Below, piece by piece: positions 2,469 through 52,237 of a stretch of 64,000 bases of DNA (its first letter is position 1; every line of letters begins with the position of its first letter). The stretch covers positions 32,001 through 96,000 of IMG/VR virus record IMGVR_UViG_3300002494_000025, one strand, 5' to 3'. Under the pieces are notes generated by a model that was not told the DNA's origin, searched no databases, and saw only the letters and a list, made by a program, of their open reading frames with translations. Both the position numbers and the translations under genes were made by a program. Source of the DNA: a virus.

Positions 2469-4196
2469 TTAATTTACAACAGACACTTCTATTGTAGAGA
2501 GATTGGTATCATAGTCTTTCTTAATTTGAACATTTACGTATTCAAATGGAATTTCCTGAATATTGTTGTTACTGATTATTACCTGATAGTCATATTGTTT
2601 TGCAAAGTCATAAAGTAATTGTAAAATTTTCAAAACATTTGAACCATCAACACCATTAAAGAAATCATCAAAAATTAATACTTTGAGTTCAGGTGCTGTT
2701 TTGAATATATTTAAGATTGTAAGAATTGTAAGAATAAAGATAATTGATACTTTCTTACGTTCACCATTTGATAATAGTTGATACGGTATGAACACACCAT
2801 CCCTGATAATACCGAACGAGATACTTTCATCATCGTATACAATTTCAAACTCTTCATTTTTATTCAACACATATGAACTATATGATTTAGCAATACTATT
2901 CATTTTACTGATATATTGTGATAAGAAATTTTTTCGTACTGGTGACTTGACATTTAGTAGTTCAATTATCAGATTTATATGTTTTAATTTTGTATCTAAT
3001 TCTTCAACAAGTTTGTTTTTCTCAGTGATTTGTTGTTCAATTTGTTTTATGTTTTCTTCGATTTGTTTAACTTGGTTATCATTTTGTTCGATTTGTTCAT
3101 TTATCATTTTCCATACATCTCTGGCACGGTTATGTAATTGTTTAAATTCTTGTATCTTGCTCAATTTCGTTTTCAACTCATTATACTGTTGTTCTATTTG
3201 TTTCCGTTGATTTGATGTTTTCAATAAGACTTCAATTTCGTCGTTTATTAATTGCGTATAAACATCAACATCACCTTTTGTGATTGGTCTATAACAAGTG
3301 GGACATTTTTGTAGTTCCTTTAAATGATTTAGTTCTTTTATCTTTTTTTCGTGAGTTTGTTCCGAAGTTTTCAATTCTAATAACTTTTTTTCCGTTTCAT
3401 TTATTTCATGTTTTATAGATGTTTCCATTGTTGTAACAAATTGTGTAATTTCATTACTTTTACCATTGAAATCTATCTCCAATTCAGGATTAAAGTACTT
3501 TTTTAATTCATTTAAATCGTTCATATACTTATTAAGTTCATTAACCTTTCTTTGGATTGTTTCAACTGAAAACTGTTGTTGAATATTTTTTAATAAACTC
3601 TCAAACTTATTTTTAGAAGATTTCAACGTTTCAATTTCAGACATTAATTTCGATTGTTGTGTCTGTAATGTTGATTGTTGATTTTTAATTTCCTTAATAT
3701 ACTCTTCCAAATCTTTATTATAAATGATTTTCTCAATAATTCTAAAAATTTGAACTGATGATAAGTCATATATTTGTTCTTTGTTCGGAATAAATACATG
3801 TGTAAGTGAATATATCTTATTAATATCTTTTATAATACTCTCTACAAAATAGTCAATTTTATCTTTTATTCTAATATTAAAAATATCTGGTTGAATTGTT
3901 ACATCAGATTTTCGACTATCAAATATTCTTGTTATAGTATACGTATGTGTATCATCTTTTTTAAATGTGACAGAAATCTTGGAATCACCTTCCGAACCAA
4001 TACGTTTCAAACTTTTAAACGATTTTATTATATTTAACGTTGACAATATACTATAGACAATTGAAGTTTTACCAGAACCGTTTGTAATGTTAGTATCATT
4101 ACTGTTTAATAACACGATGTTGTAATTATCAGGGATTTCAACACTAACATTATCATATACAGTAATATTCTCAAGTTCGATACGAGAAATTTTCAT
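2469..4196 (-). CDS. SbcC/Rad50/T4 gp46-like recombination ATPase
   Basis: Walker A NGSGKTS, coiled coil, CPTC zinc hook, LSNGE signature, IFDD Walker B. No internal TAG. Confidence 0.9.
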   Translation of the reverse strand: MKISRIELENITVYDNVSVEIPDNYNIVLLNSNDTNITNGSGKTSIVYSILSTLNIIKSFKSLKRIGSEGDSKISVTFKKDDTHTYTITRIFDSRKSDVTIQPDIFNIRIKDKIDYFVESIIKDINKIYSLTHVFIPNKEQIYDLSSVQIFRIIEKIIYNKDLEEYIKEIKNQQSTLQTQQSKLMSEIETLKSSKNKFESLLKNIQQQFSVETIQRKVNELNKYMNDLNELKKYFNPELEIDFNGKSNEITQFVTTMETSIKHEINETEKKLLELKTSEQTHEKKIKELNHLKELQKCPTCYRPITKGDVDVYTQLINDEIEVLLKTSNQRKQIEQQYNELKTKLSKIQEFKQLHNRARDVWKMINEQIEQNDNQVKQIEENIKQIEQQITEKNKLVEELDTKLKHINLIIELLNVKSPVRKNFLSQYISKMNSIAKSYSSYVLNKNEEFEIVYDDESISFGIIRDGVFIPYQLLSNGERKKVSIIFILTILTILNIFKTAPELKVLIFDDFFNGVDGSNVLKILQLLYDFAKQYDYQVIISNNNIQEIPFEYVNVQIKKDYDTNLSTIEVSVVN

Positions 4197-10926: not shown

Positions 10927-11406
10927 ATGAGTGGTAGGTACTCACGACAAAAGGGTTATAGAATAGAATATGAACTCACCAAACTTTTACAATCTTATCA
11001 CATTAACAATAAACGTGTACCATTGAGCGGTGGAAGTTGGTTAAAAGGTGATATTATCATTGAACACAATAACAGAACATATATATGTGAAGTAAAAGGT
11101 GGTAGTAACAAATTTAAAATAATATATGACAAATTTCTAACATATAGAGATACAACAAACAAGTCATGTGTCTATCTTGGTGATTATGTTCTGTGTGATA
11201 TCCCAACATTTGTAAAACTTCTAAATAACGAAACAAATATCATTAATAGTATTAGTGACATTTTGAACATAACCAAACTAAATATGATCAATGATTATAT
11301 CGATAAAAAAGATGTATTGTTCATCAAACGTGACAGAAAAGAATATCTGGTAATATTTAGAAAACAACTATTTAACTCATCAAGTGGGGGTGTTACAAAT
11401 GGATAA
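10927..11406 (+). CDS. Hjc-like Holliday junction resolvase (PD-(D/E)xK nuclease)
   Basis: KGYRIEYE, RVPLSG, GDII and EVK motifs. No TAG and no Ala. Confidence 0.75.
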   Translation: MSGRYSRQKGYRIEYELTKLLQSYHINNKRVPLSGGSWLKGDIIIEHNNRTYICEVKGGSNKFKIIYDKFLTYRDTTNKSCVYLGDYVLCDIPTFVKLLNNETNIINSISDILNITKLNMINDYIDKKDVLFIKRDRKEYLVIFRKQLFNSSSGGVTNG

Positions 11407-14050: not shown

Positions 14051-15229
14051 TCACCCCTGTTGATTGGATAATGAATTTAAATTTACAACATATGTATTGA
14101 ACAAATTGATCAACAACTCTTCATCATATGTAATTCCTTTGTTCCTTAAACTTTGGATATATTCCATAAGATATTCAACAAAATACTCTTCAAAAGTAAG
14201 ATACTTTTCTTCTACAATTTCAGTTTCTTGTTGTAATTTATTATCTTTTAATAAATTACTTAATGTTATTAACTTTTTTACATGAGAATTATTACTTAGT
14301 TTATTGATTACAACATCATCAATATTTGAATTATCTGTTAGATGTAGTTTAACAACGTATAGATGATGGTTATCATTTAAAAATGGTTCATACTTATCAT
14401 ACTCATTACTCATAAACTCTAAATACTTAACTTGGTGTGGCCACTCATTAAATGTTAATTGATATGTGTTAAGATCAAATTCATAATATCCGTATATATT
14501 ATTATGTACCGTTGTTTTTTCACTAAAACTCTTTGGGAAACATGTAATAACATAATAATTATCATCTGGAATTCGAATATCCTTAGTGTGATAATGTCCT
14601 TGAAAGAACTTGTAATTGAGGTTACTCGTTTGTAGGAACATTCTCAACTCGTTGTAATTGAGATAATGTGGATTGTTAGTTACATCAACATTTTCAAATT
14701 GTGTAATAATTTCTGAAATTTCAGCATGTGATATAAACAAATGTAATGACCGATTGTGATATGTATTTGTGGTTATAACATTTTTTATTTTCTCAATTAC
14801 GATATCAGTCAGTGTATTATCAACAATATCTTTGAAGAACTCTTTGGGGTAATATGGAATAAAATGGATATACAGGTCTGGAGAAAATTGAATTGTGGAA
14901 ACTTCCTTCACAGTAATCGTACGTTTATACGTACTTAACAGATTAGTTACATTGACAATTTGATTCATTATATCGTGATTTCCGTTGATTAAGTATACTT
15001 TCTTAAACAAACTAACTATTTTACCGTACAATAGCATATCAAAGTACGTAATTTTACTAATATTATCGAACAAATCACCCCCAATTAATAAAACATCTTC
15101 ATTAGGGGTTAGTTGTAAATTTAAAAAACTTTTCAATAATTGAATACTTCTTTCTGACATACTTTTTTTATTACTAAACAATGTGTTACTCTGTGTGATA
15201 TGTAAATCCGATACTATGTACAATTTCAA
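14051..15229 (-). CDS. SbcD/Mre11/T4 gp47-like metallophosphoesterase nuclease
   Basis: SDLH, GGDLFD, GNHD and GHYH motifs. TAG-free with one Ala in 392 aa. Confidence 0.9.
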   Translation of the reverse strand: MKLYIVSDLHITQSNTLFSNKKSMSERSIQLLKSFLNLQLTPNEDVLLIGGDLFDNISKITYFDMLLYGKIVSLFKKVYLINGNHDIMNQIVNVTNLLSTYKRTITVKEVSTIQFSPDLYIHFIPYYPKEFFKDIVDNTLTDIVIEKIKNVITTNTYHNRSLHLFISHAEISEIITQFENVDVTNNPHYLNYNELRMFLQTSNLNYKFFQGHYHTKDIRIPDDNYYVITCFPKSFSEKTTVHNNIYGYYEFDLNTYQLTFNEWPHQVKYLEFMSNEYDKYEPFLNDNHHLYVVKLHLTDNSNIDDVVINKLSNNSHVKKLITLSNLLKDNKLQQETEIVEEKYLTFEEYFVEYLMEYIQSLRNKGITYDEELLINLFNTYVVNLNSLSNQQG

Positions 15230-15299: not shown

Positions 15300-17948
15300 T
15301 TAAATTATTCCCCCGAATAATGTGTACAGTTGTTGAACATTGTTATTGGTTGTTACAGTACTCAGTATATCGTTAATAATTTTTTCAGACATAAAACTTT
15401 CAAATCGTCTAACAAACTGTTCATAGATTGAAAGATAATCGACTTTTATTGTTTTGTCATTAGTTAGAATTTCTTTTACAATCTTGGTATCATTTTCCTT
15501 AAATGAAAGGTAACCACTTATTTCAGTAACCTTTTTTCGTTTCTCATTAAAAATTTCTCTTGCCACATTAAAATATTTTGATGTATTAAGTATTTTTACA
15601 GGAATTACATAAATTTTTTGACCAATAAGTTCGTTATCGTCATAATCAATATCCATAACATCTTCCGCGATATACTTGAATAACTTCCAACCACGTAGAT
15701 GATATGGATCAACTTTATACTCCAGCGTTGTAAGTGTTTTCGACTCTGCAATTTCTTCAAGATGTGTAGTTTCAAGTTCGTTATAAATTTGTACAAATAA
15801 ATCCTTCATGTCTTTTTCAGATATATTATCATTGGTTACAAGTAACATAAACAATTGACGTAGTTTATTTTTCAAAAATTGTGGAAAATCAGACCTTGCC
15901 AAGTCAACACCTTTATATATTTCCTTCCCATGGTAATCAAACCCGTAGTAACGTTTTTTCACACCAAAGAATTTTACACGTTTAAACACTTTATCAATTT
16001 CCATTCTCAGTGTATTGATTTGTCTTAGTTCTTCATCACTTATATTCTGTATAATTTCCTTCAAAAAATCTGGTATTTTGTTATTTACATGTTCCCTTAT
16101 ACGTTCAGCACATACTAATGTAACTTCTTCGTTATCCATTATTACCGGATTTATAAATATAAACTCGATAAATACACTGTCTGTATCACCGTATACTACT
16201 TTAGTTAAAAATGTATACTTAAACCCATTTATATCTTCTCTCCAAGTTTTATCATCAACATAGTCAATAACACTTCTTATCAAATACCTTCCTACAGATG
16301 TAATTGATAGTGCAACATCTGTATTGTAAAATGTAAAATATTTTGTTCCGAACACCCCATAAATACTATTTGCCAAAATTTTATAGTTTAGTTGTCTATT
16401 ATAGTATTCCATATTATCGGGGTGTTCTTTACTTAGTTTCTTATAGTAGAATCTCATTTCTAATATATTTCTTATCATCTTTCGTATAAGTGTATCTTTT
16501 TGTAAGAAGTATACGTCACGAACACCTGTTAATTCTTTGTTGATATGTGTATATTTCACAGGTTCTGTGGGTTTCTTTACTGGTTGGATATCTATACTGC
16601 ATGTCAGTATTATATTTGGGTATAGTGATGCAAAGTCTAAGACTACGACGTTTTTATGTACTCCATCATCCGGGGTATGTACATATGCACCGGTGTAACT
16701 TTCATCGTTGTTTTCCTCGGGATCTATATTCTTTACACCAGACGTAAAAGGCAACAACACATTTTCCTTCCATGCAAATAGATTCAAATAACCTTCGACT
16801 GTGTATAAGGTACTCATGAGTTTATCAAGATTTATTGGAACAATTTCGTTAAATGAATTCAACAGTGTAATTAATTTTAATTTTTCTTCGAGTTTGACCA
16901 GTATCTCAACATCACGTATTATGTAACTTAAAAAACGTTTGTAATCATCAATATGTAGATATCCCATCTTTTCTGTTTTTCCAAATTCTAATCCATTGAT
17001 TTTTGCAATATTATCCAGACCCCAACTTGTTGGTGTCTCTGGTATAAATTTTTCGTATAATTCTTTATAATCAATGAAATAAATCATTGGTACATTTATG
17101 TAATATACAACACCACGTCCACCTTGTGCAAATTCCTTAAAGTATGGTTTACTTATCTTATACTCATTGGAATCAAAGGATAAAAAATCATTGAATAATC
17201 CATGTTGAATCAGTCGTTTGACCAAGTATGGAATATCATACATGTTAGAAAACCATCCTGTAATTATGGATGGTTTTTGTATTTTCACATAAATTAAAAA
17301 TTTATCCAACAAGTCCACTTCATCTTTTGCAATGGTGATTTTAGTCTTTATGTTGTACTGTTGGTGGTATTCTCTTTCATATTCAATTACATCCTTAGGA
17401 TTATTAACTTTAATAAATTCAGTGTTAATGATAGTATAATACGTATTGTCGGTATTGTTATACCAGGTGATAGAAGTAATTGGCATCATCGCTTGTTGAG
17501 GTTTGTTCCATCCGTGTTTAAGTGCTTCCGGTGTAGAATACACTTCTATGTCCAACATCCAATATGTTCTATCGAATTGAATATCCTCAACAGTAAACAA
17601 TCCTACATCTTTAATAAAATTTCCCACAATAAGTTTTCGCTTTTTCAACCCTGCTAAATATCTCACAAATTCATTCTTAAATTCTCTAAATGCATAATAA
17701 TCATGTTTGTCATCTTTTAGAAAGACTTCATAAATTGATTCACCATTCAACCCAGTAAAGTTTGTCTTTTTTACACCGATATTAATGTTTTTCTCCTTCA
17801 AAAATGATTTCAAATACTGTAAACCTTCCTCTACCAAATAGAAGGAAGGTTTCATTTTAAGAATATTTAGTTTATCTTCCGTCGTGTGTATCAAAAATTG
17901 ATATTTATCTTTATCATAATACAAATTCTTAATTTTCATATAAACCAT
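15300..17948 (-). CDS. polB: Family B DNA polymerase with proofreading exonuclease (gp43-like)
   Basis: DIEV ExoI, YDIPY, DFASLYP, KILANSIYG, YGDTDS and KKRY motifs. Confidence 0.95.
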   Translation of the reverse strand: MVYMKIKNLYYDKDKYQFLIHTTEDKLNILKMKPSFYLVEEGLQYLKSFLKEKNINIGVKKTNFTGLNGESIYEVFLKDDKHDYYAFREFKNEFVRYLAGLKKRKLIVGNFIKDVGLFTVEDIQFDRTYWMLDIEVYSTPEALKHGWNKPQQAMMPITSITWYNNTDNTYYTIINTEFIKVNNPKDVIEYEREYHQQYNIKTKITIAKDEVDLLDKFLIYVKIQKPSIITGWFSNMYDIPYLVKRLIQHGLFNDFLSFDSNEYKISKPYFKEFAQGGRGVVYYINVPMIYFIDYKELYEKFIPETPTSWGLDNIAKINGLEFGKTEKMGYLHIDDYKRFLSYIIRDVEILVKLEEKLKLITLLNSFNEIVPINLDKLMSTLYTVEGYLNLFAWKENVLLPFTSGVKNIDPEENNDESYTGAYVHTPDDGVHKNVVVLDFASLYPNIILTCSIDIQPVKKPTEPVKYTHINKELTGVRDVYFLQKDTLIRKMIRNILEMRFYYKKLSKEHPDNMEYYNRQLNYKILANSIYGVFGTKYFTFYNTDVALSITSVGRYLIRSVIDYVDDKTWREDINGFKYTFLTKVVYGDTDSVFIEFIFINPVIMDNEEVTLVCAERIREHVNNKIPDFLKEIIQNISDEELRQINTLRMEIDKVFKRVKFFGVKKRYYGFDYHGKEIYKGVDLARSDFPQFLKNKLRQLFMLLVTNDNISEKDMKDLFVQIYNELETTHLEEIAESKTLTTLEYKVDPYHLRGWKLFKYIAEDVMDIDYDDNELIGQKIYVIPVKILNTSKYFNVAREIFNEKRKKVTEISGYLSFKENDTKIVKEILTNDKTIKVDYLSIYEQFVRRFESFMSEKIINDILSTVTTNNNVQQLYTLFGGII

Positions 17949-20568: not shown

Positions 20569-21672
20569 AATGATAATATTATACTCAATACAATAATTGA
20601 ACTACAATCAAATGATACCAACAATGATTATATTTTGTATACAAATGATGTGTAGTTAATCTTAAAATAGAAAATGTTCAATGTTGAAACATATACAAAT
20701 ATTAAATTTATTGACATTGAAAATTTTCATACCCACCAGTTCAGAATTGTTAAGATAACAAACGACGATTTTGAACGTTTAATACCTGTCATAGAACGCA
20801 ATCGCTTCGAATCAAATGACATAATTATCAATCGTACTGAGTATAACGTTGATCATAATTCAATTGATTCATATTTCTACATTACAAATGAAGAACAAGA
20901 TGTAAAATACTTATTCAGAAAATTAGATGGTAATACATAGAGGTTTGTATCTATAGAGAAACTATTACATGCATATCTAAGTGAATATCAATACGAAAAC
21001 TATGGATTAAAGATAATTAAACCACGTGACGATGAACAGTTATAGCTACTTGATAGTTTCTTTACAGATACACTAATAATATCATTATAGAAGTCTGGTA
21101 CTGGAAAGACATTGTTATAGTTGTTTTATTAGATAACAGAAGTACTTAAAAATAGACTAAATAAAACGTTAATACCAAAAACATATTCAAAAATTATCTT
21201 TATCGCCAATAATTCAGTTATCCAACCCCGTAAAGAGTTGGGTTTCCTACCAGGTAGTAAACATGAGAAAATATTACCATTTATGAGTGGTATCATCGAT
21301 AATTTAGATTTTCTCTTTAATGGAAATATTAATAATGACTTTGATATAACAAAAACAGATGTGAATAGTCTATTTGAAATCCGACCAATTTAGTACATCA
21401 GAGGTTCATCAATAAATAATTAGATCGTAATTGTTGATGAAGTTCAAAATCTAACATGGCACGAATTAAAAACAATAGTGACACGTGTGAATACATCAAC
21501 ATCAAAATTAATTCTCATTGGTGATATACATCAAGTCGATGAAACAATGTAGATAGATTATCTTGGTATTATGAAATTGATCAATGTATTGTTTGATTCA
21601 AACCTACAAAATTGGAATTATATACCACTTACCACAAGTTATAGAAATATGTTCACAAACACACAAACATAA
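20569..21672 (+). CDS. phoH: PhoH-family ATPase with partial PIN domain (PhoH2-like); TAG-recoded; start uncertain
   Basis: [32 protein letters not shown] and GDIHQVD. Upstream TNDV*LILK*K resembles a PIN-domain tail. No clear start or RBS for the PIN part. Confidence 0.8.
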
Positions 21673-23545: not shown

Positions 23546-24220
23546 TTAGATAGATTTTTGTTTTTGACTATATAGTTTTAGCAATTGTGAAATACCGTCT
23601 TTTAGTCTGTATGTGTCTATCACAAAAATTATAAATTTCTCACCAACTGTAATTACAATTTCACAATATTTATGTAACAGTAAATTATTGATAAATCGTT
23701 CATCCATAATTATATATGCACTATTGTACAATTCTGGATAAAAAACTGCATACATATCAGTATACGGTTTTACATTACTTTTAATATTTTTATTATTTTC
23801 TTGTTCTTGTTGTAACGTATCAAAAAATCTTACACTTGTCAACCTAACTGCGTATACTTCTTCGTTAAATTGTTTTATGACCTGAACGTTTGGGGAATCA
23901 ACTGTTAGTCCGATTGGTTCGACAAATTGAAATGCAAAAAACATCTTTTTGTGAGGTAAACTGATATTAATCATTAATTTGACAAATTGCTGATCATCAA
24001 TTTTACCATTGATTATGAAATCTGTTGTACTATAAAGAAAAGTATCAAAGAGTGGATATGTATCATAACGATTTTCTGTATACATAACCCAATAACCAAA
24101 ACTTTCAATTCTTGTTACACTATATACCGACTGTGAAAACAGAATTACAAACAATACAAACACAAACATGTTTAGATATATGTATGACCTTTTAATTTGA
24201 ATACTCATTATTAAACCCAC
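23546..24220 (-). CDS. Hypothetical exported/membrane protein
   Basis: N-terminal hydrophobic signal-like segment, TAG-free. Confidence 0.6.
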   Translation of the reverse strand: MGLIMSIQIKRSYIYLNMFVFVLFVILFSQSVYSVTRIESFGYWVMYTENRYDTYPLFDTFLYSTTDFIINGKIDDQQFVKLMINISLPHKKMFFAFQFVEPIGLTVDSPNVQVIKQFNEEVYAVRLTSVRFFDTLQQEQENNKNIKSNVKPYTDMYAVFYPELYNSAYIIMDERFINNLLLHKYCEIVITVGEKFIIFVIDTYRLKDGISQLLKLYSQKQKSI

Positions 24221-24238
24221 CTCCCAAAAATTAAATAG

Positions 24239-24553
24239 TTAATTATTCTGTACCTCAAGTTTAATTGTTACCCAACCGAACATTTTTTTGATGTTATTAT
24301 ACTCAGGATGTGGTTCAAATCGTAATACAGGTTTAACTGGTTTTATTGTGTAGATTTCATTTAATGGAATTATTTTCCACTCATTACTATCTTGTACACG
24401 AACCAACAACACTGTATTTTTATTTTTTATTAAATTTGTTCCAACTAGATATGGTTCACAGACAATATCGTTTATTTGTATACATTCTTTATTTACTATG
24501 TTATTTTCCAATTGTTTGATTAACTCCCTTTGTGTATATACACTCATACTCAC
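24239..24553 (-). CDS. Stand-alone WYL-like domain protein (degenerate)
   Basis: CEPYLVG..EWKIIPLNEI..F.P.PEYN resembles the 27937-28293 protein. Confidence 0.5.
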   Translation of the reverse strand: MSMSVYTQRELIKQLENNIVNKECIQINDIVCEPYLVGTNLIKNKNTVLLVRVQDSNEWKIIPLNEIYTIKPVKPVLRFEPHPEYNNIKKMFGWVTIKLEVQNN

Positions 24554-24571
24554 ACCATCTCCTCATATAGT

Positions 24572-25741
24572 TTAATTCAATACTTTTAGTAATTCACGTG
24601 CAAGAAAACGGATAACTGGGACTGAAACTGAATTACCTGCTTGTTTGTACAGTTTACTTGTGGGATATGGTTGATTTCTATAAGTGGTGGGTAGTTTATA
24701 ACCATTATCAACAGGGAAACCTTGGATCTTAAACGCTTCTTTTGGTGTTATCATCCGGATTCCGTCTGGAACTCGTACAATAGTCATGTTAGTTGGATGT
24801 GTAGATGATGCGACTAATGCAGGACACAGTCCAGATTTATTTTTTCGTACATAGGAATTCCTTCTAATTTGGTAGAACCAATACATTTCATCAACTTCCT
24901 CTTCAAGATTGATTCTATTCTTTGGTCTTTTATCTGGTGGTAATTTCTCATACTCTTCCTTTGATACAAACAGATATGGATACTTTTCTTTTGTATAATA
25001 ATATTCAGGGTTATCTTTGATATTGATGTTAAGATCTAGTACATTCATACGTTCTTCCATTAATTGTTGAGGTGTTTTCCTGATTTTATATTTTTTAAGA
25101 TTGTTACCATCAAACAATGTAAATTTATCAACATCTTCTTTATTCAGAAATGCAAGAATATAGATTCTTGATCTGTTTTGTGGTAGTTCTGTATAATCTT
25201 TTGTGTTTATAACAGCATCTTTGACGGTATATCCCAAATCTTCAAGTGTAGTTCTAATAACTTTGTATGTATTTCCCCCATCATGTCGTTTTAAATGACT
25301 AACATTTTCCAGGAATAAAACACGTGGTTTTTTACCGAACACCTTTTCATGTTCAATTACAACATCCACGATTCTCCAGAACATTTCCCCCCTTGGGTCT
25401 TCAAATCCAAGTTTCTTACCTGCCACTGAGAAAGGTTGACATGGAAATCCAGCAGTTAGGATGTCAACATGATGAGAAAACATATCGTTCTTCAACTTCT
25501 TGTAATAACGAATTAGTTTAATGTTTTTTGCTAATTCCGGTTTAAGTATTTTTACAATATCACCATGTAGAATTCTGTGGTTGAAATTAGTTTGTAACGT
25601 TACAACTGCATAATTATCTATTTCATTTGACCAAATGATCTCGTATTTTTTATTTTCAACATCCTGGGTGGCAAGTATGAACCCCATTTCTATTCCACCC
25701 ACACCTGCAAACAGACTACCAACATAAAATAACTTCTCCAT
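24572..25741 (-). CDS. DNA (cytosine-5) methyltransferase, orphan
   Basis: LFAGVGG, GFPCQPFS, ENV, QNRSRIY and YKQAGNSV motifs. Confidence 0.95.
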   Translation of the reverse strand: MEKLFYVGSLFAGVGGIEMGFILATQDVENKKYEIIWSNEIDNYAVVTLQTNFNHRILHGDIVKILKPELAKNIKLIRYYKKLKNDMFSHHVDILTAGFPCQPFSVAGKKLGFEDPRGEMFWRIVDVVIEHEKVFGKKPRVLFLENVSHLKRHDGGNTYKVIRTTLEDLGYTVKDAVINTKDYTELPQNRSRIYILAFLNKEDVDKFTLFDGNNLKKYKIRKTPQQLMEERMNVLDLNINIKDNPEYYYTKEKYPYLFVSKEEYEKLPPDKRPKNRINLEEEVDEMYWFYQIRRNSYVRKNKSGLCPALVASSTHPTNMTIVRVPDGIRMITPKEAFKIQGFPVDNGYKLPTTYRNQPYPTSKLYKQAGNSVSVPVIRFLARELLKVLN

Positions 25742-25839
25742 TATCCACTACCCCCATAACCAATCTAATAATATGTTAGATTTTGTAATTAAAAAAACGG
25801 GTGTAATGTAAAAAACAACACCCGACATAAACATTAAAA

Positions 25840-27108
25840 TTATATCCGCATCGGTATTAACACATAAAAGTATGTAAGCTCACTATCAACTGGTGATATT
25901 TTGACTGGACTGACATTATCGACAAACTTAAACATACATTTACTTGTGTCTATATGTTTTATGATTTCGCTTAACAGTTTGGGGTTAAAACTAATAATCA
26001 AGTCACTTCCCTGTTTATCCACAATATCGAGTTCATCAATAACTTCACCAAAATCGGAACTTCTTACTATAAATCTTGTAATGTTATTAGTAATTTCCAG
26101 TACAAGTTTTTCCCCACTTTTGTTTGACAAGACTGATATATGTTTCAATGTCTCTTTCAATTTCTCTGTGTCGAACACTATCATAGTACTTGTGTTAATG
26201 TTAACAACTCGTGAATAGTCTGGAAATTTATCTTCAACAGTCCTGGTGATAATTTTTATATCGCCGGTATCAAACATCACAACTGAGGTATTGTATGATG
26301 TAGACACATTTATTTCTGGTTCTGTGGTTGTAGTTACTAATTTGTATATCTCTTTCATCGTTTTAAGATCTACAAGGAATTGAATAGACTGATTAATTGA
26401 TGTTTGAATTCTATCCGATGTTAGTCCTAGTCTATAACCATCAGTACCCACCAAAGTTAACTCATTATCTTTATTGACTAACCACAATACTGAATTCAAA
26501 TTCCTTAAATTGTAATCTGTGGATGTACAAAACAGTACCTTATCAATTAGTTCTTTTAATATGGATGTTTCTACTGTAAAAACATTATCAGTTTCACTTA
26601 CAAGAGTCTCAATATCTGGGAACTTATTCTCTTCAGAGTATGTTGTAAGTGTATATTTGGATTTTCCACTCTTGATAATTAGTTTACCATCATCTGTATG
26701 ATACATAAATGTAAGAACGTCATCTTTATCAAAACTTTTAACAATATCAAACAATAGATCTGATCTTACAAGAAACTTAGTTTCGTTACCACTACCACCA
26801 CTACCACTGAACTCGTATTCACTAACATTGATACTTGTTACAATTGTAGTTTGAAGATTTGTTGATACTAACTTAACCACTGGTTCCTTATCCATAAAAC
26901 CATTTTCAACTTTGAACAATATACATTGAAGTGTTGGATCAACTGTTCTAGAATTGGTAATATCATCAAGTATTTCAATTTTGTTGATAATATGATATTG
27001 TTTTACATTAAATGACACCACATTCTTTTTCAACATACTTTCTTCATTTAACCTCCTCTCAAAATTTTGTATGTTATTAACAATATACACAAGTTGTACA
27101 TTTACCAT
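25840..27108 (-). CDS. dnaN: Bacterial-type DNA polymerase III beta sliding clamp (start may be ATG at 27036)
   Basis: GTDGYRL, FPDYSRV, ISFNPK and C-terminal LIPMRI. No alanine at all. Confidence 0.9.
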   Translation of the reverse strand: MVNVQLVYIVNNIQNFERRLNEESMLKKNVVSFNVKQYHIINKIEILDDITNSRTVDPTLQCILFKVENGFMDKEPVVKLVSTNLQTTIVTSINVSEYEFSGSGGSGNETKFLVRSDLLFDIVKSFDKDDVLTFMYHTDDGKLIIKSGKSKYTLTTYSEENKFPDIETLVSETDNVFTVETSILKELIDKVLFCTSTDYNLRNLNSVLWLVNKDNELTLVGTDGYRLGLTSDRIQTSINQSIQFLVDLKTMKEIYKLVTTTTEPEINVSTSYNTSVVMFDTGDIKIITRTVEDKFPDYSRVVNINTSTMIVFDTEKLKETLKHISVLSNKSGEKLVLEITNNITRFIVRSSDFGEVIDELDIVDKQGSDLIISFNPKLLSEIIKHIDTSKCMFKFVDNVSPVKISPVDSELTYFYVLIPMRI

Positions 27109-27119
27109 CTTTAATACTT

Positions 27120-27899
27120 TTAATACCCTCTTTTTTGTCTATCAAAATTTTCGTGATTTTTCGTCATATAATGAATTATCAAATCTTCCAAACTTCTTTT
27201 TCCATCAAAATTAATAAACAACTCTGATAATATCTCATGTAATTCATTTGTAACTTTCAAAAACTCGGAATAATCAATATTATAATCCTGTTCTTTATAT
27301 GTTTTCCAATATTTCCATGGGAATAAATTTAAAAGTTTGGACAATTTAACAAATCCTTCAAACACTAGATCATTATATGTTGTAACGTTTTTGTATGGTG
27401 TGTCGAATGTAAAATTAAATGTTGACATCATATCGTTAACAACCTTTTCCACAATAACCTTTTGGTATGTTTTATCACTTACATAATTATCAATCTGATT
27501 ATTTAATTTATCGTTAATTATATTAACTATCAGTAACAATTGTAACAAGAAGTGATAAATATCAATTACTTCATAACGACATTCAACTTTGTACTCACTT
27601 AGTCTAACAATATGTTCGGCATTTGGAAGTTCATCAATCCAATTTTTAATTTCAACAAACTCATCAAACATTGCAAGTATTGTCTTTTCAGCCAGATCTT
27701 TGAATGTTAATCTAGATTGTTCCCAAGTTGGAAGTATTTTTCTTTTTATGATATCAATCATTAGAGAGTTCTGTAAATCAACCATATAGTACAAAATTGG
27801 TTTGTTAGATTGTTTTTTAAATTCCTCAATTTGTTGTTTCATTTGTGGATAGTATTGTATATGTATCTCAAACTGTGACTGTCGGTGTTGTCCCATCAT
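27120..27899 (-). CDS. Dimeric all-alpha dUTPase/dCTPase (T4 gp56-like)
   Basis: DEFVE, EVIDIYHF, PWKYWK and KNHENFDRQKRGY motifs. Confidence 0.8.
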   Translation of the reverse strand: MMGQHRQSQFEIHIQYYPQMKQQIEEFKKQSNKPILYYMVDLQNSLMIDIIKRKILPTWEQSRLTFKDLAEKTILAMFDEFVEIKNWIDELPNAEHIVRLSEYKVECRYEVIDIYHFLLQLLLIVNIINDKLNNQIDNYVSDKTYQKVIVEKVVNDMMSTFNFTFDTPYKNVTTYNDLVFEGFVKLSKLLNLFPWKYWKTYKEQDYNIDYSEFLKVTNELHEILSELFINFDGKRSLEDLIIHYMTKNHENFDRQKRGY

Positions 27900-27936
27900 T
27901 TATTACCCCCTTTTATCTTAATGACATTCTATTCTG

Positions 27937-28293
27937 TTATTGTCTCTTGACATTTACGATGATTCTGGTCATTGCTTTATCATCTGGATTGTACTCTGGT
28001 CGTTGTGTTGGATCAAATTTTACCAAGATACCCTCAGACTGTAATGGTTCAACGTACTCAATCAACTCAACGTTAAACAACTTCCACCCTTCGGAATTTC
28101 CTGAAGTACTATAACCACTTTGTTGAAATGCACGTAATAATGTGTTACCAAGTCGGTTTACACCCAATACATATGGTTCCACAATACGTTCCCGTGGTTC
28201 ACCACGATATTTCAGTTTTACTACAGTTCTTTTTCTAATACTTTTCACCAGTACATTAATAATCTCATTTACACTCATCACCATACTTATCAA
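27937..28293 (-). CDS. Stand-alone WYL domain protein
   Basis: YRGEPRERIVEPYVLG..LRAFQ..GWKLF..RPEYNPDD. Confidence 0.75.
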   Translation of the reverse strand: MISMVMSVNEIINVLVKSIRKRTVVKLKYRGEPRERIVEPYVLGVNRLGNTLLRAFQQSGYSTSGNSEGWKLFNVELIEYVEPLQSEGILVKFDPTQRPEYNPDDKAMTRIIVNVKRQ

Positions 28294-28343
28294 CCTCCTT
28301 CTTTTAACTTGTGTCTAATAATAATATATTGGATTTTGCAATT

Positions 28344-30053
28344 TTAACTGTCTAAACTCTCAAATAGTTGTTTGTTAAAATTTTCAATTTCATAAATCAT
28401 TAATTCATCAATATTTCTAAGTTCATGTTCATCGAATCTATCAATACCGAACAACATATCAAACACCTCGATTTTGGGATTGAGTATTTTGTTTAATACG
28501 TACTTATCAAATAACGATAATAAATTTATCACAATCCCGTCATTAACTTTCTTGTGACGTAGTCTATATATTCTTCCAACTCGTTGATTCATTTTAGCAG
28601 GATTGTATAGTTGGTCGTAATTAATCAGTACATCCAAATCAAGATTTACACCGGTTGATAACACATCTGTTGCAAGGATTATATACTGTTTTAAATTTTT
28701 TAATTGAGAACGATTGATTTGTTTTTTACTTGAAAACACAAATATGTTTTTATTTTTGAATATTTCATTCTTGGTAAGTAGTTCATACAGATGGTTAATG
28801 ACAGTTTCATAAAATGAGAAAATTATAACTTTTTTGTTACTGTATGATTGAAGAATGTCAAATATTTGTTTATCTTTGGGAGACATATAATTATCCCAGT
28901 CTACAGTTTTAACATACTTAGACAGTTCTGGTAGATATTTAGACTTATGTACAGTTTGTTTAATGATGACTGGATTATTTAATATCTCACGTAAATAGAT
29001 GAACCGTACAATGTTTTTAACAAGTGGGTGTGATATATTATTTGTTTCTTGTTTGAGGATTTGTATCATCTGTTTCTGAAGATTTTCCATACCAACATCA
29101 ACAGAAAAAGTATGAATATTTTGAAGGTATAATTTATCGATAACAACAACATCTGTTTTCCTCCTTCTTATATAAACTTTTGTTTGTTGTAATATAGATT
29201 TTAATTCATCCAAATTTTGATATTCGTACTTAGTGAACTTACCATTTTGAATTGGTGTTACATACCGTTCTATAAGTTTATTGGTCCAAATATCCATACC
29301 GTAAAACATAACTTGTAACAAATTAAAGAGTTCAATAACATGATTTTCAATTGGAGTGGCAGTGGATACAATAGTGAATGTCTCCGGTAAGAACTGGTTA
29401 ATAAACTTTATTACTTGTGTAACTTGGGTGTTGGAATTTTTTATTTTTTGTGCTTCATCTAATATTAACAATGTATATGAACTGTTATTTTTAATTTTGT
29501 TGAGGAAATCTACAATTAAACTAACCTGTAATTTGTCAGTTGTTCTAAACAAATCATAGTGTGTTACAATTAGATTAAATTTATTCAATTCATTTGTTGT
29601 ATAAAGTGATTTTTTATCAGTTAACAAAACAATGTTGAGGTACTTATGTAAATTATATTTTTTAATTTCTTCAAGAACATCAAATTTAACATTTTTAAGT
29701 GTAATATAGATTGTAGTAAATGGTTTGTTTATCGACTTGAAATAATCAGTTAACAATAATGTTGAAGACAGTGTTGACAGTGTCTTACCTAACCCAGTAT
29801 CGTCTGCCAATATAACGCCATGTTTTTTGAACAATATACCATTGAATATCTCATTTAAAAACTGTAAGAATTCAACTTGATGTTGTTGTAGTGTAATTTT
29901 GTACTTTGACTGTATCTTAATCTTATCAATATCAAGTCTTATGTTGGTGAACGTACTAATATATCTATTGTCACTTGGTGATATGTTATTTAAAAACAAG
30001 TATAAGTTGGTACTATATTCTTTTATGTGTTCAAACATAAATTCACCATCCAC
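28344..30053 (-). CDS. SNF2-family helicase/ATPase
   Basis: LADDTGLGKT, LDEAQKIKN, TATPIEN, GVNL and QRVGRIYR motifs. Confidence 0.9.
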   Translation of the reverse strand: MDGEFMFEHIKEYSTNLYLFLNNISPSDNRYISTFTNIRLDIDKIKIQSKYKITLQQHQVEFLQFLNEIFNGILFKKHGVILADDTGLGKTLSTLSSTLLLTDYFKSINKPFTTIYITLKNVKFDVLEEIKKYNLHKYLNIVLLTDKKSLYTTNELNKFNLIVTHYDLFRTTDKLQVSLIVDFLNKIKNNSSYTLLILDEAQKIKNSNTQVTQVIKFINQFLPETFTIVSTATPIENHVIELFNLLQVMFYGMDIWTNKLIERYVTPIQNGKFTKYEYQNLDELKSILQQTKVYIRRRKTDVVVIDKLYLQNIHTFSVDVGMENLQKQMIQILKQETNNISHPLVKNIVRFIYLREILNNPVIIKQTVHKSKYLPELSKYVKTVDWDNYMSPKDKQIFDILQSYSNKKVIIFSFYETVINHLYELLTKNEIFKNKNIFVFSSKKQINRSQLKNLKQYIILATDVLSTGVNLDLDVLINYDQLYNPAKMNQRVGRIYRLRHKKVNDGIVINLLSLFDKYVLNKILNPKIEVFDMLFGIDRFDEHELRNIDELMIYEIENFNKQLFESLDS

Positions 30054-37737: not shown

Positions 37738-38373
37738 TTATTTATGTTTTAATTTTGAACGTTTTAGTTTCTCAATATATGTTTTTAACACATATTCTTC
37801 AAAACTATTCAGTTTACCACGGTTTTCCAATTTCTTTAAATAATTAACACTTTCAGTAATAACATACTATTTGTCAAATCCCGGAATTGATACTACATCA
37901 AAAGTAATAATATCGAATGTATCAGGAACTACATATATAACACTTTTACCACTTATATATTTTTCTTCAACATCACCTAGAGCTCTCAATGAAATACCAA
38001 CTGATACTTTTGAATTTAACAATTCTTGTAGTATGACACCATTTGGAGTATTAAGTGGAACAAATGATCCATATATTATTTTATCTTTTAATTCCAGATT
38101 CGTAATAAGATGTGATACTTCAGTCAGTTTGATGTACTACATACGATTTGGATCATTTGTTTCTGGATGGTCGAGTTCTCCCATCAGTCTCTTCTATTCA
38201 ATTTCTTTTTGTAATCTTGGATAGTTTCTTGTAAAACATTCTTTTGGATAGTACCTGTTATTGTTATTTACGGTTTCAAGTAACATAAAGATCTATTTAT
38301 ACTTTTTTCCATTTGTTCCATCTATACTTGACTATCCCATGTTTTCAACTATGACAGTGTGTCTGTTTGGCAT
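37738..38373 (-). CDS. Prohead protease (T4 gp21-like); TAG-recoded
   Basis: NNNNRYYP, GELDHP, VSHLIT, TPNG and GISLRALG motifs appear only with TAG readthrough. Missing from the ORF track. Confidence 0.85.
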
Positions 38374-50614: not shown

Positions 50615-52237
50615 TCAAATTTTCAAAATCCAATCATAGTCATTATTGGTTATGTTTTCAGTCTCATTATTTACTTCTTGTTGTTTGTTTTTATTAATGA
50701 TTTTTTTACTCTCTTTTAAGTTTATTCTGAGTATTGTGTTTTCAATATGTTCAAATGTCTATTTTAAATTAATCCGATTTTGTTCAATCAACTGATTTCT
50801 CTAATAATATGCAAATGACAACTACATTACAAGGTCGTCATTATATCCATGTTTTGCTTGTGGTTTACCACCACGGTATACAAAGACTAGTAACTCACTT
50901 ATAATTCTTTCACTTCTGATATTTTCTGGAAATTCAGTAACGTATTCCTTCATCTATTTCAATATTAATGGTCGGGTAATTGCAGTAGTAATGATACCGT
51001 ATGTACGAGTTTGGGATCGTTTTTCGAGATCTTGTGTGTTGATTTTCTATTCTTCTTTTGTACTGGAGATGTATTTGTCGATGAACAAATTTGAATAACC
51101 TTTTTCACGTAGACGTCTTGCAACCTATAATCCCCATCCACCGGTAACTTCTATCTATATCGACTATGTGTTGTAATATTTACCAATCTCTATTAATACA
51201 TCCTAATATTCAACATCTGATATATGTTTACTTGTAAAATCCTATACAACTTTACCATCTTCGTCAATTACAACGAACTAAGACTAGTCATTTGACATTC
51301 CAGAAGCAACGTCTACGCCTATGATATACTATTTATTTTCCTTCACTTCTTCATACATATAAACTTCCCAACCGTTAATTTCAAATGAACTTATTGGTTT
51401 TTGTTGTGACTTTTGTAATTTTTCTAGTGTTACAGAATCCAAGTATGTGTCATTAGATGAAATGAAATGTAACTCTAATTCTTGCATTATTGCAAGATGG
51501 TCATTACCAAGTATTTCACATTGTTGTTTGTACCATGTATCGTCATAATACGGAATATCTCTCCAGTGGAATCTGAACAATGTATATGGTGGGTTATCTG
51601 AATTTATCTACTATTCATAATATCTATAGTAATCATTATCCACACCATTGGGTGTTGAATTGAGGATAATACCCCATGGAATACCAGAATTCTATATCGT
51701 AGCAAGTGTTGGTGCTAACTATTTTAACTATTCTTCAAGATTTGGGACAAACTACTACTCATCTACAATAACAGTTGACAATCTAAAAGAACGAAACGGG
51801 TTATTCGTATTACCCTATCGGATTACACTACCGTTAGAAAAATGGAGAGACTTTTTAAGAGGTCTCTCCAACTTAGGTAACCATGAAATTTTTGATAATT
51901 CGGAAATCTCATACATTTCTTTTATGTCTTGTAAGAATTGGTTTGCTTTATCTTGTTCAATTGATAAGATACCGATATAGTATCTACTATAAAACAACTA
52001 CAACCACAGTGATAATGCTTGTAATGTAGTGGACATACCTGTTTGTCGTGATTTTAACACCAACATCTTATGTTTTTCCAACCATAGTCGAATAAATTCT
52101 TTTTGTTTTTCAAACATTTTAAATGGTACAACACCCATTCTTTGATTAAAAATTTTTATATAATTTTCAATAAAATAAATGGGGTCTGTTTTACATTTTA
52201 AATATTCTTGTATGTTATCGAGTTTTGTATTTTCCAT
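50615..52237 (-). CDS. terL: Terminase large subunit (T4 gp17-like); about 22 in-frame TAGs
   Basis: KSRQTGMST, IVDE**F, STPNG, GVDVASG and DDLVM*L. Single frame to TGA at 50615. Confidence 0.92.

What the first reader, a model, noticed from the sequence alone, without database searches (positions are those of the whole stretch)
25840..27108. Alanine-purged early proteome: a DnaN clamp with zero Ala
TAG-free proteins have nearly lost Ala. My counts from the supplied translations are DnaN 0/422, Hjc-like 0/159, Mre11-like 1/392, SbcC-like 4/575 and PolB about 17/882. Conserved Ala positions are replaced by Gly/Ser/Thr, e.g. DnaN VATDGxRLA -> VGTDGYRLG and IAFN -> ISFN. These genes apparently cannot use TAG and shed Ala instead, giving nearly 19-amino-acid proteins.
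Basis: seen in the sequence. Interest (0 to 1): 0.8.

Follow-up and report, generated by a model that had tools for sequence, protein, structure and literature searches.

The report
Alanine-free clamp from phage GpC avoidance
A hot-spring phage has almost removed the two-letter DNA word GC from its genome, which strips out the normal alanine codons; it reads the stop codon TAG as alanine in many genes, while TAG-free genes such as its DNA sliding clamp have little or no alanine.

Summary
The DnaN clamp (w25840-27108, minus strand) has 0 Ala in 422 residues. About 19 are expected from its own base composition, and the family median is 6%.

Ala loss is not specific to TAG-free genes. GCN codons are equally rare in TAG-free genes (1.38%) and TAG-containing genes (1.17%).

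The cause lies in the DNA. The GpC dinucleotide is depleted about 4-fold (o/e 0.27):
- It is depleted in all three codon phases (0.32, 0.15, 0.19) and in intergenic DNA (0.20).
- At the synonymous NGC/NGT choice, only 55 of 1,662 codons end in C.
- None of 309 control loci falls below o/e 0.60.

TAG is read as Ala:
- A phage tRNA(CUA) carries G3:U70 and A73.
- TAG aligns with conserved Ala in terminase and PhoH.

TAG supplies about 60% of the Ala in TAG-using genes. TAG-free genes lack this route and stay Ala-poor.

Relatives in public databases share the trait but are translated with TAG as Gln.

Why GpC is avoided is unresolved. Candidates are GpC methylation followed by heat-accelerated deamination, or nuclease avoidance.

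Earlier first-reader notes of this scan on the same genome had already raised GpC depletion.

The parts
25840..27108 (-). dnaN, a bacterial-type beta sliding clamp with 0 Ala. The true start is possibly Met25 (w27036).
   Evidence: One search gives the translation. One search finds 0 GCN and 0 TAG codons. One search finds PF00712, PF02767 and PF02768. Searches give an AF2 model with pLDDT 93.8 and a top match to the Thermotoga maritima clamp 1vpk (TM 0.93). expects 19.4 GCN codons.
24572..25741 (-). Cytosine-5 DNA methyltransferase next to dnaN. It is a candidate for GpC-related methylation, but its specificity is unknown.
   Evidence: One search finds PF00145 at E = 1e-67. One search matches the M.HhaI catalytic domain at E = 6e-33, with no match to the recognition domain. 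One search counts 13 GCN codons, 9 of them GCA.
10927..11406 (+). PDDEXK/Hjc-like nuclease. TAG-free, 0 Ala in 159 aa.
   Evidence: PF24608, E = 3e-5, below the gathering score.
14051..15229 (-). Mre11/SbcD-like phosphoesterase. TAG-free, 1 Ala in 392 aa.
   Evidence: PF00149.
2469..4196 (-). SbcC/Rad50-like protein. TAG-free, 4 Ala in 575 aa.
   Evidence: only a weak AAA_23 hit, below cut-off.
15300..17948 (-). Family B DNA polymerase. TAG-free, 17 Ala in 882 aa, 14 of them GCA.
28344..30053 (-). SNF2-type helicase. TAG-free, 5 Ala in 569 aa.
50615..52237 (-). Large terminase with 22 in-frame TAG and 10 GCN codons. Together these give 5.9% Ala, which is typical for the family.
20635..21672 (+). 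PhoH-like ATPase with 10 in-frame TAG codons. The ORF is probably longer at its 5' end, because relatives are about 450 aa.
37738..38373 (-). Prohead protease with 5 in-frame TAG codons.
   Evidence: PF03420. One search finds Ala in 53 of 139 cells aligned to TAG.

Best explanation
The window lies in a roughly 106-kb AT-rich, T4-like phage found in a hot-spring metagenome. The phage genome avoids the dinucleotide GpC at the DNA level. All four alanine codons begin with GC, so the GCN box has been almost emptied (1.2% of codons), and most conserved Ala positions have been replaced by Gly, Ser, Thr, Val or Cys.

The lineage partly restored alanine by reading TAG as Ala. It does this with a phage-encoded tRNA(CUA) that keeps the AlaRS identity set (G3:U70, A73, G2:C71). 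This tRNA sits beside a phage tRNA-Ala(UGC) and a tmRNA.

Genes that contain no TAG include the replication and recombination set: DnaN, PolB, SbcCD-like, the PDDEXK nuclease and SNF2. These genes have only the disfavoured GCN route, so they are Ala-poor. DnaN has no strictly Ala-requiring position and has reached zero.

**Shown**
- GpC avoidance in all codon phases and in intergenic DNA.
- Equal GCN rarity in both gene classes.
- In-frame TAG at conserved Ala columns.
- The tRNA identity elements.
- The Ala-free clamp is predicted to fold normally.

**Inferred**
- TAG-free genes are the early genes, read before suppression is active. This follows the model published for TAG=Gln phages.
- The cause of GpC avoidance. 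I favour GpC-context cytosine-5 methylation, with the phage C5-methyltransferase next to dnaN as the candidate, followed by heat-accelerated 5mC-to-T deamination. This would be a GpC analogue of vertebrate CpG decay. Counter-selection by a GC-recognising nuclease may act as well or instead. I put the two at roughly 40:35.

The confidence given is for the core claim: DNA-level GpC avoidance causes the Ala loss, and TAG=Ala rescues only the TAG-using genes. It does not cover the cause of the GpC avoidance.
For: **GpC avoidance**
- The window has 312 GC dinucleotides, o/e 0.24.
- Along the 135-kb contig the o/e is 0.11-0.42 in the AT-rich block, against 1.19-1.44 in the 42%-GC left flank.
- In 97 ORF-called phage genes, phase 1-2 has 386 seen against 1,210 expected (0.32). 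Phase 2-3 has 55 against 368 (0.15). Phase 3-1 has 93 against 500 (0.19). Intergenic DNA has 41 against 209 (0.20). The 21 flank genes give 1.08-1.63.
- At the synonymous NGY choice only 55 of 1,662 codons end in C (3-5%), against 19-43% for every other NNY family. The G|C codon junction has o/e 0.18.
- Controls: 309 loci of at least 4 kb (152 T4-like phage, 79 bacterial MutS, 78 PhoH phage) have a minimum o/e of 0.60 and group medians of 1.09-1.13. This phage is 0.27.

**TAG means Ala**
- aragorn and Rfam find a tRNA(CUA) with G1:C72, G2:C71, G3:U70, A73 and an encoded CCA.
- In terminase, at the 22 TAG columns, 111 standard-code homologs show Ala in 900 of 2,442 cells against a 6.6% background. 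Ala is the majority residue in 10 columns.
- The log-odds for Ala is +4.7, against -23.4 for the next residue, Ser. The control columns A, Q, S and G each recover their own residue.
- In PhoH, Ala is also best: -1.9 against -8.7.
- In the prohead protease, 53 of 139 cells aligned to TAG are Ala.

- 96 genes hold 30,981 codons, with 381 GCN and 384 TAG. TAG-free genes have 1.38% Ala. TAG genes have 1.17% + 1.78%.
- Terminase reaches 5.9% Ala with TAG counted, against a family range of 4.5-9.0%.

**Real substitutions, not a hidden Ala codon**
- Nine different codons sit at 12 Ala-rich DnaN columns.
- An RNA-library contig over dnaN shows no difference beyond a variant that is also in the DNA run.

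**Fold**
- AF2 gives pLDDT 93.8. Foldseek's top hit is the Thermotoga maritima clamp.

**Clade**
- The 9 closest terminases show 'Q' in 118 of 198 cells at the query's TAG columns. Three of them have 0 Ala.
- The 17 closest PhoH proteins have 0-5 Ala and 13-35 'Q'.
- Table-11 gene calls of the same clusters are fragments of 60-113 aa.

**Thermal setting**
- The runs holding the sequence are labelled hot springs metagenome.
- The flanking MutS is 85% identical to a Fervidobacterium protein.
Against: - 'TAG-free' does not map cleanly on 'early'. The Gp23-type capsid gene is TAG-free and keeps 26 GCN codons.
- No timing data exist. The RNA run is held as contigs, which cannot rank genes, and it may contain DNA.
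- TAG=Ala rests on sequence inference only. In PhoH one TAG column aligns with an invariant Asp (102 of 103) and one with an invariant Gly (103 of 103). One sheath column aligns with Gly in 44 of 48 cells.
- The cause of GpC avoidance is not established.
  - The methyltransferase's specificity cannot be read from sequence.
  - The GT/AC excess (1.25) is matched by a TG/CA excess (1.28) that the smaller CpG loss cannot explain.
  - In a recently shared fibre domain, 12 of 18 lost GC sites became GT or AC. That is no more than an ordinary transition bias would give.
- GC is its own reverse complement, so DNA-level and RNA-level selection cannot be separated by strand.
- DNA of close relatives could not be obtained, so the order of events (GpC loss, then TAG capture) is untested.
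- Gene calls are my own ORF heuristic, with TAG read as sense throughout. Some ORFs with a single TAG may be misclassified.
Confidence: 0.8

Rival explanations
1. Translation-level purge. GCN codons are avoided because alanine decoding by host tRNA-Ala is unavailable or unsafe during infection, for example if host tRNA-Ala is cleaved by a defence nuclease. The phage then brings its own tRNA-Ala(UGC) and an anticodon-shifted tRNA-Ala(CUA), and early genes simply do without Ala.
For: The phage carries its own tRNA-Ala(UGC) and tRNA(CUA), both with G3:U70. 270 of the 381 remaining GCN codons are GCA, which is cognate to UGC. tRNA-targeting defences and rescuing phage tRNAs are described in papers I saw only as titles and abstracts in the search listing.
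Against: It cannot explain why GC is even more depleted where it does not encode Ala: phase 2-3 is 0.15, phase 3-1 is 0.19 and intergenic DNA is 0.20, against 0.32 in the Ala phase. It also cannot explain the roughly 8-fold avoidance of NGC against NGT synonymous codons. The 5' neighbour of retained Ala codons mirrors the 3' neighbour (T 205 of 381 and A 270 of 381, so TGCA is favoured). That is the symmetry expected of duplex DNA.
Confidence: 0.07
2. Selection against a GC-recognising nuclease, with no mutational bias. A host restriction or defence enzyme, or a phage-encoded host-DNA-degrading enzyme, with a very short GC-containing site removes genomes in proportion to their GC sites. The phage methyltransferase protects the remaining sites. 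This is a rival only for the cause of GpC avoidance; it is compatible with the core claim.
For: All 10 NGCN contexts are depleted, but in a graded way. TGCA is 0.65, contexts with one non-TGC/GCA side are 0.16-0.41, and contexts with two are 0.11-0.28. This fits an agent that reads a GCB/VGC trinucleotide on either strand. Retained Ala codons cluster in TGCA: 17 of 26 capsid Ala codons follow T and 20 of 26 are GCA. A C5-methyltransferase sits in the replication gene cluster. The host-like flanks are GpC-rich, at o/e 0.97-1.34. A GC-specific methyltransferase of a chlorovirus is named in an abstract listed.
Against: No candidate nuclease was found. Ten TAG-free neighbours gave no informative Pfam hit. 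Classical restriction avoidance removes specific 4-6-bp palindromes, not a dinucleotide in every context. If the methyltransferase protected all GC sites, there would be little selection to lose them.
Confidence: 0.3
3. The low Ala content is simply a consequence of extreme AT richness (29% GC).
For: Ala content falls with AT-type amino-acid bias among DnaN homologs (r = -0.68).
Against: The 61 DnaN homologs with similar AT-type amino-acid bias (FYMINK fraction within 0.03 of the query's or higher) have 1.5-8.6% Ala, and 4.9% is predicted for the query. DnaN's own base composition predicts 19.4 GCN codons. The 51 control loci with GC below 33% have GpC o/e of 0.60 or higher.
Confidence: 0.02
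4. RNA-level avoidance: a GC-specific endoribonuclease, such as a toxin-antitoxin mRNA interferase, selects against GC in transcripts.
For: GC is self-complementary and nearly the whole genome is transcribed, so strand cannot exclude this. The structured RNAs keep GC: there are 6, 4 and 7 GC dinucleotides in the two tRNAs and the tmRNA.
Against: The context preference around retained GC is reverse-complement symmetric (TGCA tolerated, AGCT 0.15), as expected for duplex DNA recognition. No such nuclease was identified.
Confidence: 0.05
5. Artefact: a sequencing or assembly error, a hidden sense-codon reassignment to Ala, or RNA editing that restores Ala.
For: The contig is compositionally chimeric at its ends.
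Against: Logan contigs of a DNA run and of an RNA library reproduce the region, with 3 single-letter differences and 3 small insertions or deletions over the 18 kb laid. Within dnaN the only difference is one letter that both runs share. The DNA run may be the source of the record. Independent database relatives share the trait. Nine different codons occupy the Ala-rich DnaN columns.
Confidence: 0.01

Closest known systems
Stop-codon-recoded phages that read TAG as glutamine (genetic code 15; crAss-like, Lak and other gut phages)
   Same: In-frame TAG in structural and lytic genes, TAG-free replication genes, a phage-encoded tRNA(CUA), and a host presumed to use the standard code. This model appears in passages of the Borges et al. 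preprint (10.1101/2021.08.26.457843) that I read.
   Different: The amino acid here is Ala, not Gln. This rests on the tRNA identity elements and the alignment columns. That preprint states that only TAG-to-Gln and TGA-to-Trp were seen in phages whose code differs from the host's. Here the recoding is tied to near-loss of the standard codon box through dinucleotide avoidance, which is not part of that model. The setting is a hot spring, not a gut.
Methylation-driven CpG depletion of vertebrate genomes (recalled general knowledge, not from a call)
   Same: A roughly 4-fold depletion of one self-complementary dinucleotide in every context and phase. The two transition products are in excess (GT and AC at 1.25; the G|T codon junction at 1.65 and A|C at 1.52). 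A cytosine-5 methyltransferase is encoded.
   Different: The dinucleotide is GpC, not CpG. Methylation and methyltransferase specificity are untested. The excess of transition products is not specific. The consequence, loss of an amino acid's codon box, has no vertebrate parallel.
Chlorovirus GpC methyltransferase M.CviPI and short-site restriction-modification systems
   Same: A virus-encoded C5-methyltransferase acting on a 2-bp GC site exists. An abstract listed names M.CviPI as a GC methyltransferase. The rest is recalled.
   Different: Chlorovirus GpC depletion or Ala loss is not known to me.
Restriction-site avoidance in phages (recalled)
   Same: Under-representation of short palindromic words as a response to nucleases.
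   Different: Here all 10 NGCN contexts are depleted rather than one 4-6-bp site, and the depth of depletion reshapes the proteome.
UAG read as Ala in some chlorophycean mitochondria (recalled, not checked in any call)
   Same: The same codon-to-residue assignment.
   Different: That is an organellar, genome-wide code, not a phage code with TAG-free genes. No dinucleotide link is known to me.

Membership tests
Bacterial beta sliding clamp (DnaN) | Three consecutive clamp domains (Pfam PF00712, PF02767, PF02768) | tested here: met
   One search gives E-values of 9e-12, 2e-16 and 3e-15. All three exceed their gathering scores.
Bacterial beta sliding clamp (DnaN) | Clamp fold | tested here: met
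   One search gives pLDDT 93.8 and pTM 0.88. One search's top hit is 1vpk (Thermotoga maritima) with TMt 0.93, rmsd 2.2 and 33% identity.
Bacterial beta sliding clamp (DnaN) | Head-to-tail dimer ring and polymerase-binding pocket | not tested
   No complex prediction or pocket analysis was run.
TAG-recoded phage (code-15 type) | In-frame TAG within conserved genes that are full-length only with read-through | tested here: met
   For example, terminase has 22 TAG codons and PhoH has 10.
TAG-recoded phage (code-15 type) | Phage-encoded suppressor tRNA with anticodon CUA | tested here: met
   (contig 118,731-118,806, outside the window).
TAG-recoded phage (code-15 type) | TAG decoded as glutamine | tested here: not met
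   Ala is the best-scoring residue, and Gln is not among the six best. The tRNA has G3:U70, A73 and G1:C72.
TAG-recoded phage (code-15 type) | Early genes in standard code, late genes recoded | tested here: inconclusive
   Replication genes are TAG-free, but so is the major capsid gene. There are no timing data.
tRNA-Ala (AlaRS substrate) | G3:U70 wobble pair with A73 and G2:C71 (identity rules recalled) | tested here: met
   One search finds these elements in both the UGC and the CUA tRNA.
tRNA-Ala (AlaRS substrate) | Charging with alanine | not testable with these tools
   This needs an aminoacylation assay or proteomics.
Methylation-deamination dinucleotide decay | Depletion of the target dinucleotide irrespective of coding phase | tested here: met
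Methylation-deamination dinucleotide decay | Specific excess of the transition products | tested here: inconclusive
   GT and AC are at 1.25, but TG and CA are at 1.28. Of 18 lost GC sites, 12 became GT or AC.
Methylation-deamination dinucleotide decay | A methyltransferase of matching specificity, and methylated residual sites | not testable with these tools
   A C5-methyltransferase is present. Its recognition domain has no informative match.
Classical restriction-site avoidance | Depletion confined to specific 4-6-bp palindromes | tested here: not met
   All 10 NGCN contexts are depleted, at 0.11-0.65.

The most novel reading that the evidence does not exclude
A whole, diverse lineage of thermophile-associated phages (PhoH relatives down to 38% identity, some on contigs above 200 kb) has been driven by a DNA-level purge of GpC to abandon the GCN codon box. 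It has re-created alanine coding on the TAG stop codon with a duplicated tRNA-Ala. Genes that stay TAG-free have consequently evolved into natural, functional proteins built from 19 amino acids. Public databases translate these TAG codons as glutamine. This would be a case where a DNA constraint, not translation, rewrites both a genetic code and a proteome's alphabet.
Probability: 0.5. Interest if true: 0.9.

Novelty: new variant of a known kind. Interest (0 to 1): 0.8.

Why it matters
1. It gives a concrete, testable cause for a codon reassignment. A dinucleotide constraint on DNA empties a codon box, and a stop codon is then captured for the same amino acid. This differs from the lysis-timing explanation offered for TAG=Gln phages.
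2. TAG=Ala appears to be undescribed for phages in the papers I could search. Pipelines translate these genes with Gln, so a whole clade is mis-annotated at 2-4% of residues in its TAG-using genes.
3. A 400-residue, presumably functional and thermostable sliding clamp with no alanine is a natural experiment in reduced amino-acid alphabets.
4. GpC depletion to o/e 0.27 is a phage analogue of vertebrate CpG depletion. It points to an unknown GC-directed methylation or nuclease system in hot-spring bacteria or their phages.

Tried and rejected
**Rejected explanations**
- AT bias alone is rejected.
- A hidden sense codon for Ala is rejected. Nine different codons sit at the 12 Ala-rich columns.
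- RNA editing is unlikely. The RNA-library contig over dnaN equals the DNA apart from a variant both runs share.

**Attempts to obtain relatives' DNA all failed**
- A DnaN single-protein scan of viral contigs found no relative.
- A terminase single-protein scan found none either.
- Terminase-alignment scans of viral contigs and metagenome contigs returned only relatives at 32% identity or less.
- A PhoH clade-alignment scan returned only general PhoH phages at 43% or less.
- tblastn against GenBank phages gave a best hit of 31.5%.
- A tRNA-Ala-like CUA-anticodon pattern had 0 hits in viral contigs.
- As a result, the order of GpC loss and TAG capture, and polarised substitution spectra, could not be examined.

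**Host assignment by CRISPR failed**
- The repeat seen in loose ends of same-sample contigs was absent from 5 Fervidobacterium genomes.
- It was also absent from 151 genomes of that phylum.
- Absence in incomplete genomes proves nothing.

**Other dead ends**
- Methyltransferase specificity: only the M.HhaI catalytic domain matched.
- Nuclease search: Pfam on 10 TAG-free neighbours gave nothing usable.
- The fibre-domain comparison for a deamination signature was inconclusive (12 of 18).
- tblastn of the 96 ORF-called phage proteins (TAG read as X) against the 160 T4-like loci gave hits for only 4 genes.
- Literature searches, and passages read, found no phage TAG=Ala or GpC-depletion report. 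Supplements were closed and not seen. Only the held library was searched.
- The search of earlier findings by relatives and by words returned nothing.
Full report
**Setting**

The window is bases 32,001-96,000 of a single 135,374-nt virus record.
- Bases ~24.6-131 kb form an AT-rich block with 27-31% GC.
- That block carries T4-type genes: a Gp23-type capsid protein, a large terminase, a sheath and a prohead protease. It also carries a family B polymerase.
- The first 24.5 kb have 42-44% GC and encode a different phage structural module: a terminase, an SU10-type capsid protein, a tail tube and a 2,447-aa tape measure.
- The last ~4 kb encode NrdD and a MutS that is 85% identical to Fervidobacterium proteins.
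- The sequence is held by two runs of one sample labelled hot springs metagenome, one DNA and one RNA library. The DNA run may be the source of the record.

- The ORF at w25840-27108 (-) is a three-domain beta clamp with no Ala in 422 residues.
- DnaN's own position-specific base composition predicts 19.4 GCN codons, giving P = 4e-9 for zero.
- Among the 150 best of 17,085 DnaN representatives, the median Ala content is 6.0%. The only protein at or below 1% is a 75%-identical relative with 1 Ala in 393. The next relative, at 45% identity, has 22 in 367.
- At the 12 columns where homologs have at least 35% Ala, the query has V, S, G, C, T or E written with nine different codons. These are real substitutions, not a disguised Ala codon.
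- No DnaN column exceeds 68% Ala among the homologs, which explains why zero is attainable.
- The Ala-free protein is predicted with high confidence (pLDDT 93.8) to be a normal clamp. Its best structural match is the Thermotoga maritima clamp.
- Homologs start at the query's Met25, so the true protein may be 398 aa.

**What lies behind it**

The window contains only 312 GC dinucleotides, an o/e of 0.24. I called genes with a simple longest-ORF heuristic that reads TAG as sense, giving 97 phage genes.

| Position of GC | Seen / expected | o/e |
|---|---|---|
| Codon phase 1-2 (the Ala phase) | 386 / 1,210 | 0.32 |
| Codon phase 2-3 | 55 / 368 | 0.15 |
| Codon phase 3-1 | 93 / 500 | 0.19 |
| Intergenic DNA | 41 / 209 | 0.20 |

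- The same measures in the 21 flank genes are 1.08-1.63.
- The cleanest test is synonymous. AGC, TGC, GGC and CGC together make up 55 of 1,662 NGY codons (3-5%). Every other NNY family is 19-43% C-ending.
- The G|C codon junction has an o/e of 0.18.
- None of 309 control loci of at least 4 kb falls below 0.60. These were 152 T4-like phage, 79 bacterial and 78 PhoH-phage loci, and 51 of them have GC below 33%. This phage is at 0.27.

GpC is therefore avoided at the nucleic-acid level, and loss of GCN is a by-product.

**TAG is alanine**

- The contig encodes, outside the window at 118,483-119,172, a tRNA-Ala(UGC), a tRNA(CUA) and a tmRNA.
- Both tRNAs have G1:C72, G2:C71, G3:U70, A73 and an encoded CCA, and a typical tRNA-Ala D-arm. 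The identity rules themselves are recalled knowledge.
- In terminase, the 22 TAG columns align with Ala in 900 of 2,442 cells of 111 standard-code homologs, against a 6.6% background. Ala is the majority residue in 10 columns.
- The column log-odds for Ala is +4.7, against -23.4 for the runner-up. Control columns recover their own residues.
- PhoH also ranks Ala first (-1.9 against -8.7). The prohead protease has Ala in 53 of 139 aligned cells.
- Exceptions exist: one invariant-Asp column and one invariant-Gly column in PhoH, and one Gly column in the sheath.

| Gene class | Genes | GCN | TAG | Total Ala |
|---|---|---|---|---|
| TAG-free | 38 | 1.38% | 0 | 1.38% |
| TAG-containing | 58 | 1.17% | 1.78% | 2.95% |

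- In all, 96 genes hold 30,981 codons, with 381 GCN (270 of them GCA) and 384 TAG.
- GCN density does not differ between the classes (P = 0.66). Total Ala does (P = 3e-6).
- With TAG counted, terminase has 5.9% Ala, inside its family range of 4.5-9.0%. DnaN, from a family with a 6% median, has none.

The capsid gene is an instructive exception. It is TAG-free and keeps 26 GCN codons. Of these, 20 are GCA and 17 follow a T, and it has only 5 GC dinucleotides in other phases. It is thus native DNA under the same constraint, with Ala kept in the standard code.

**Context**

- All ten NGCN tetranucleotides are depleted. TGCA is least affected (0.65). AGCY and AGCG are most affected (0.11-0.15).
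- The grading follows how many strands read GC followed by a base other than A.
- Retained Ala codons prefer T before (205 of 381) and A after (270 of 381).
- This reverse-complement symmetry argues for recognition of duplex DNA.

**Cause of GpC avoidance (inferred)**

A C5-methyltransferase lies next to dnaN, and the setting is hot. 5mC deamination at methylated GpC would erode GC to GT and AC.
- GT and AC are in excess at 1.25. The G|T junction is at 1.65 and A|C at 1.52.
- But TG and CA are equally in excess.
- In a fibre domain recently shared with the 42%-GC phage, GpC o/e (my arithmetic from the counts and GC fractions printed) has fallen from 0.74 to 0.30-0.44, while overall GC fell only from 41% to 37-38%.
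- In that domain, 12 of 18 lost sites became GT or AC, which is not more than ordinary transition bias.

Selection by a GC-reading nuclease is an equally live alternative. No nuclease candidate was found. The methyltransferase's site cannot be read from sequence.

**A clade, mis-translated**

- The nine closest terminases (36-88% identity) carry 'Q' in 118 of 198 cells at the query's TAG columns. Three of them have 0 Ala.
- The 17 closest PhoH proteins (38-80% identity, on contigs up to 231 kb) have 0-5 Ala and 13-35 'Q'.
- Other members of the same clusters are table-11 fragments of 60-113 aa.

The trait is therefore shared by a broad lineage whose TAG codons are rendered as Gln in the databases.

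I could not fetch their DNA.

**Literature**

- Searches found no report of TAG=Ala or of GpC depletion in phages.
- Passages of the Borges et al. preprint state that only TAG-to-Gln and TGA-to-Trp were observed in phages whose code differs from the host's.
- Passages of two further papers treat phage TAG recoding without naming Ala.
- Supplements were closed.
- First-reader notes of this scan on the same genome had already raised GpC depletion, the two-code layout, the methyltransferase and the junction. I had computed the depletion before reading them, and I tested the thermophile lead.

**Verdict**

The interpretation needs correcting: the driver is GpC avoidance in DNA, TAG=Ala is a partial rescue, and TAG-free genes are what remains without that rescue. 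I class it as a new variant of stop-codon recoding in phages, with an unexplained and testable DNA-level cause.

Noticed in passing
contig 1-24,500 and 131,000-135,374 (outside the window); junction inside the ORF at contig 22,485-26,717: The record is compositionally chimeric. A 42%-GC siphovirus-like structural module lies on the left. NrdD and a Fervidobacterium-like MutS lie on the right. A 1,410-aa tail-fibre ORF runs in frame across the left boundary through repeated CBM-like domains. These domains also occur in a 317-aa protein at contig 129,136-130,089 (-). This could be an assembly chimera formed through a shared receptor-binding domain, or a real mosaic or integration.
   Followed up: partly
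contig 118,483-119,172 (window coordinate 86,483-87,172, outside the window): Three RNAs that would all be AlaRS substrates lie clustered together: tRNA-Ala(UGC), tRNA(CUA) with G3:U70, and a full tmRNA (Rfam 204 bits, tag peptide ending in Ala-Ala). These RNAs keep GC dinucleotides.
   Followed up: partly
contig 110,866-112,305 (window coordinate 78,866-80,305, outside the window): The Gp23-type major capsid gene has no TAG and 26 GCN codons. Of these, 20 are GCA and 17 are preceded by T. The most abundant late protein thus keeps standard-code Ala in the tolerated TGCA context.
   Followed up: partly
window 15109-15140, 16280-16318, 22352-22382, 24894-24928 and near 29093: Short same-sample contigs match about 30-39 nt of the phage and continue into a 30-nt CRISPR-like repeat on both sides. 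This means spacers against this phage exist in the community. The repeat was not found in 5 Fervidobacterium genomes or in 151 genomes of that phylum.
   Followed up: partly
relatives P0001-P0009, P0271-P0287, P0405-P0411: Public protein sets hold relatives in two forms. Some are full length with Q at TAG positions. Others are fragments of 60-113 aa from standard-code gene calling. Both forms are mis-annotations if TAG means Ala.
   Followed up: partly
window 20635-21672 (+) and upstream: The PhoH ORF as called is 345 aa, but relatives are about 440-500 aa with an N-terminal PIN-like domain (PF13638). The gene probably starts further upstream, through more TAG codons.
   Followed up: no
window 13000-31000: Contigs of an RNA library from the same sample cover 29 of 30 bins of the replication-gene region. 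Their contig depths are uneven (0-70), against a nearly flat depth (336-472) in the DNA run. This suggests transcription, but contigs cannot prove or rank it. Both runs read C where the window has T at 25855.
   Followed up: no
window 48466-50577 (-): A 703-aa protein with 23 TAG codons has an N-terminal cytidylyltransferase-like domain. A TAG sits at the small-residue position of the (H/T)xGH-type motif (motif name recalled). The rest of the protein has no family match.
   Followed up: no
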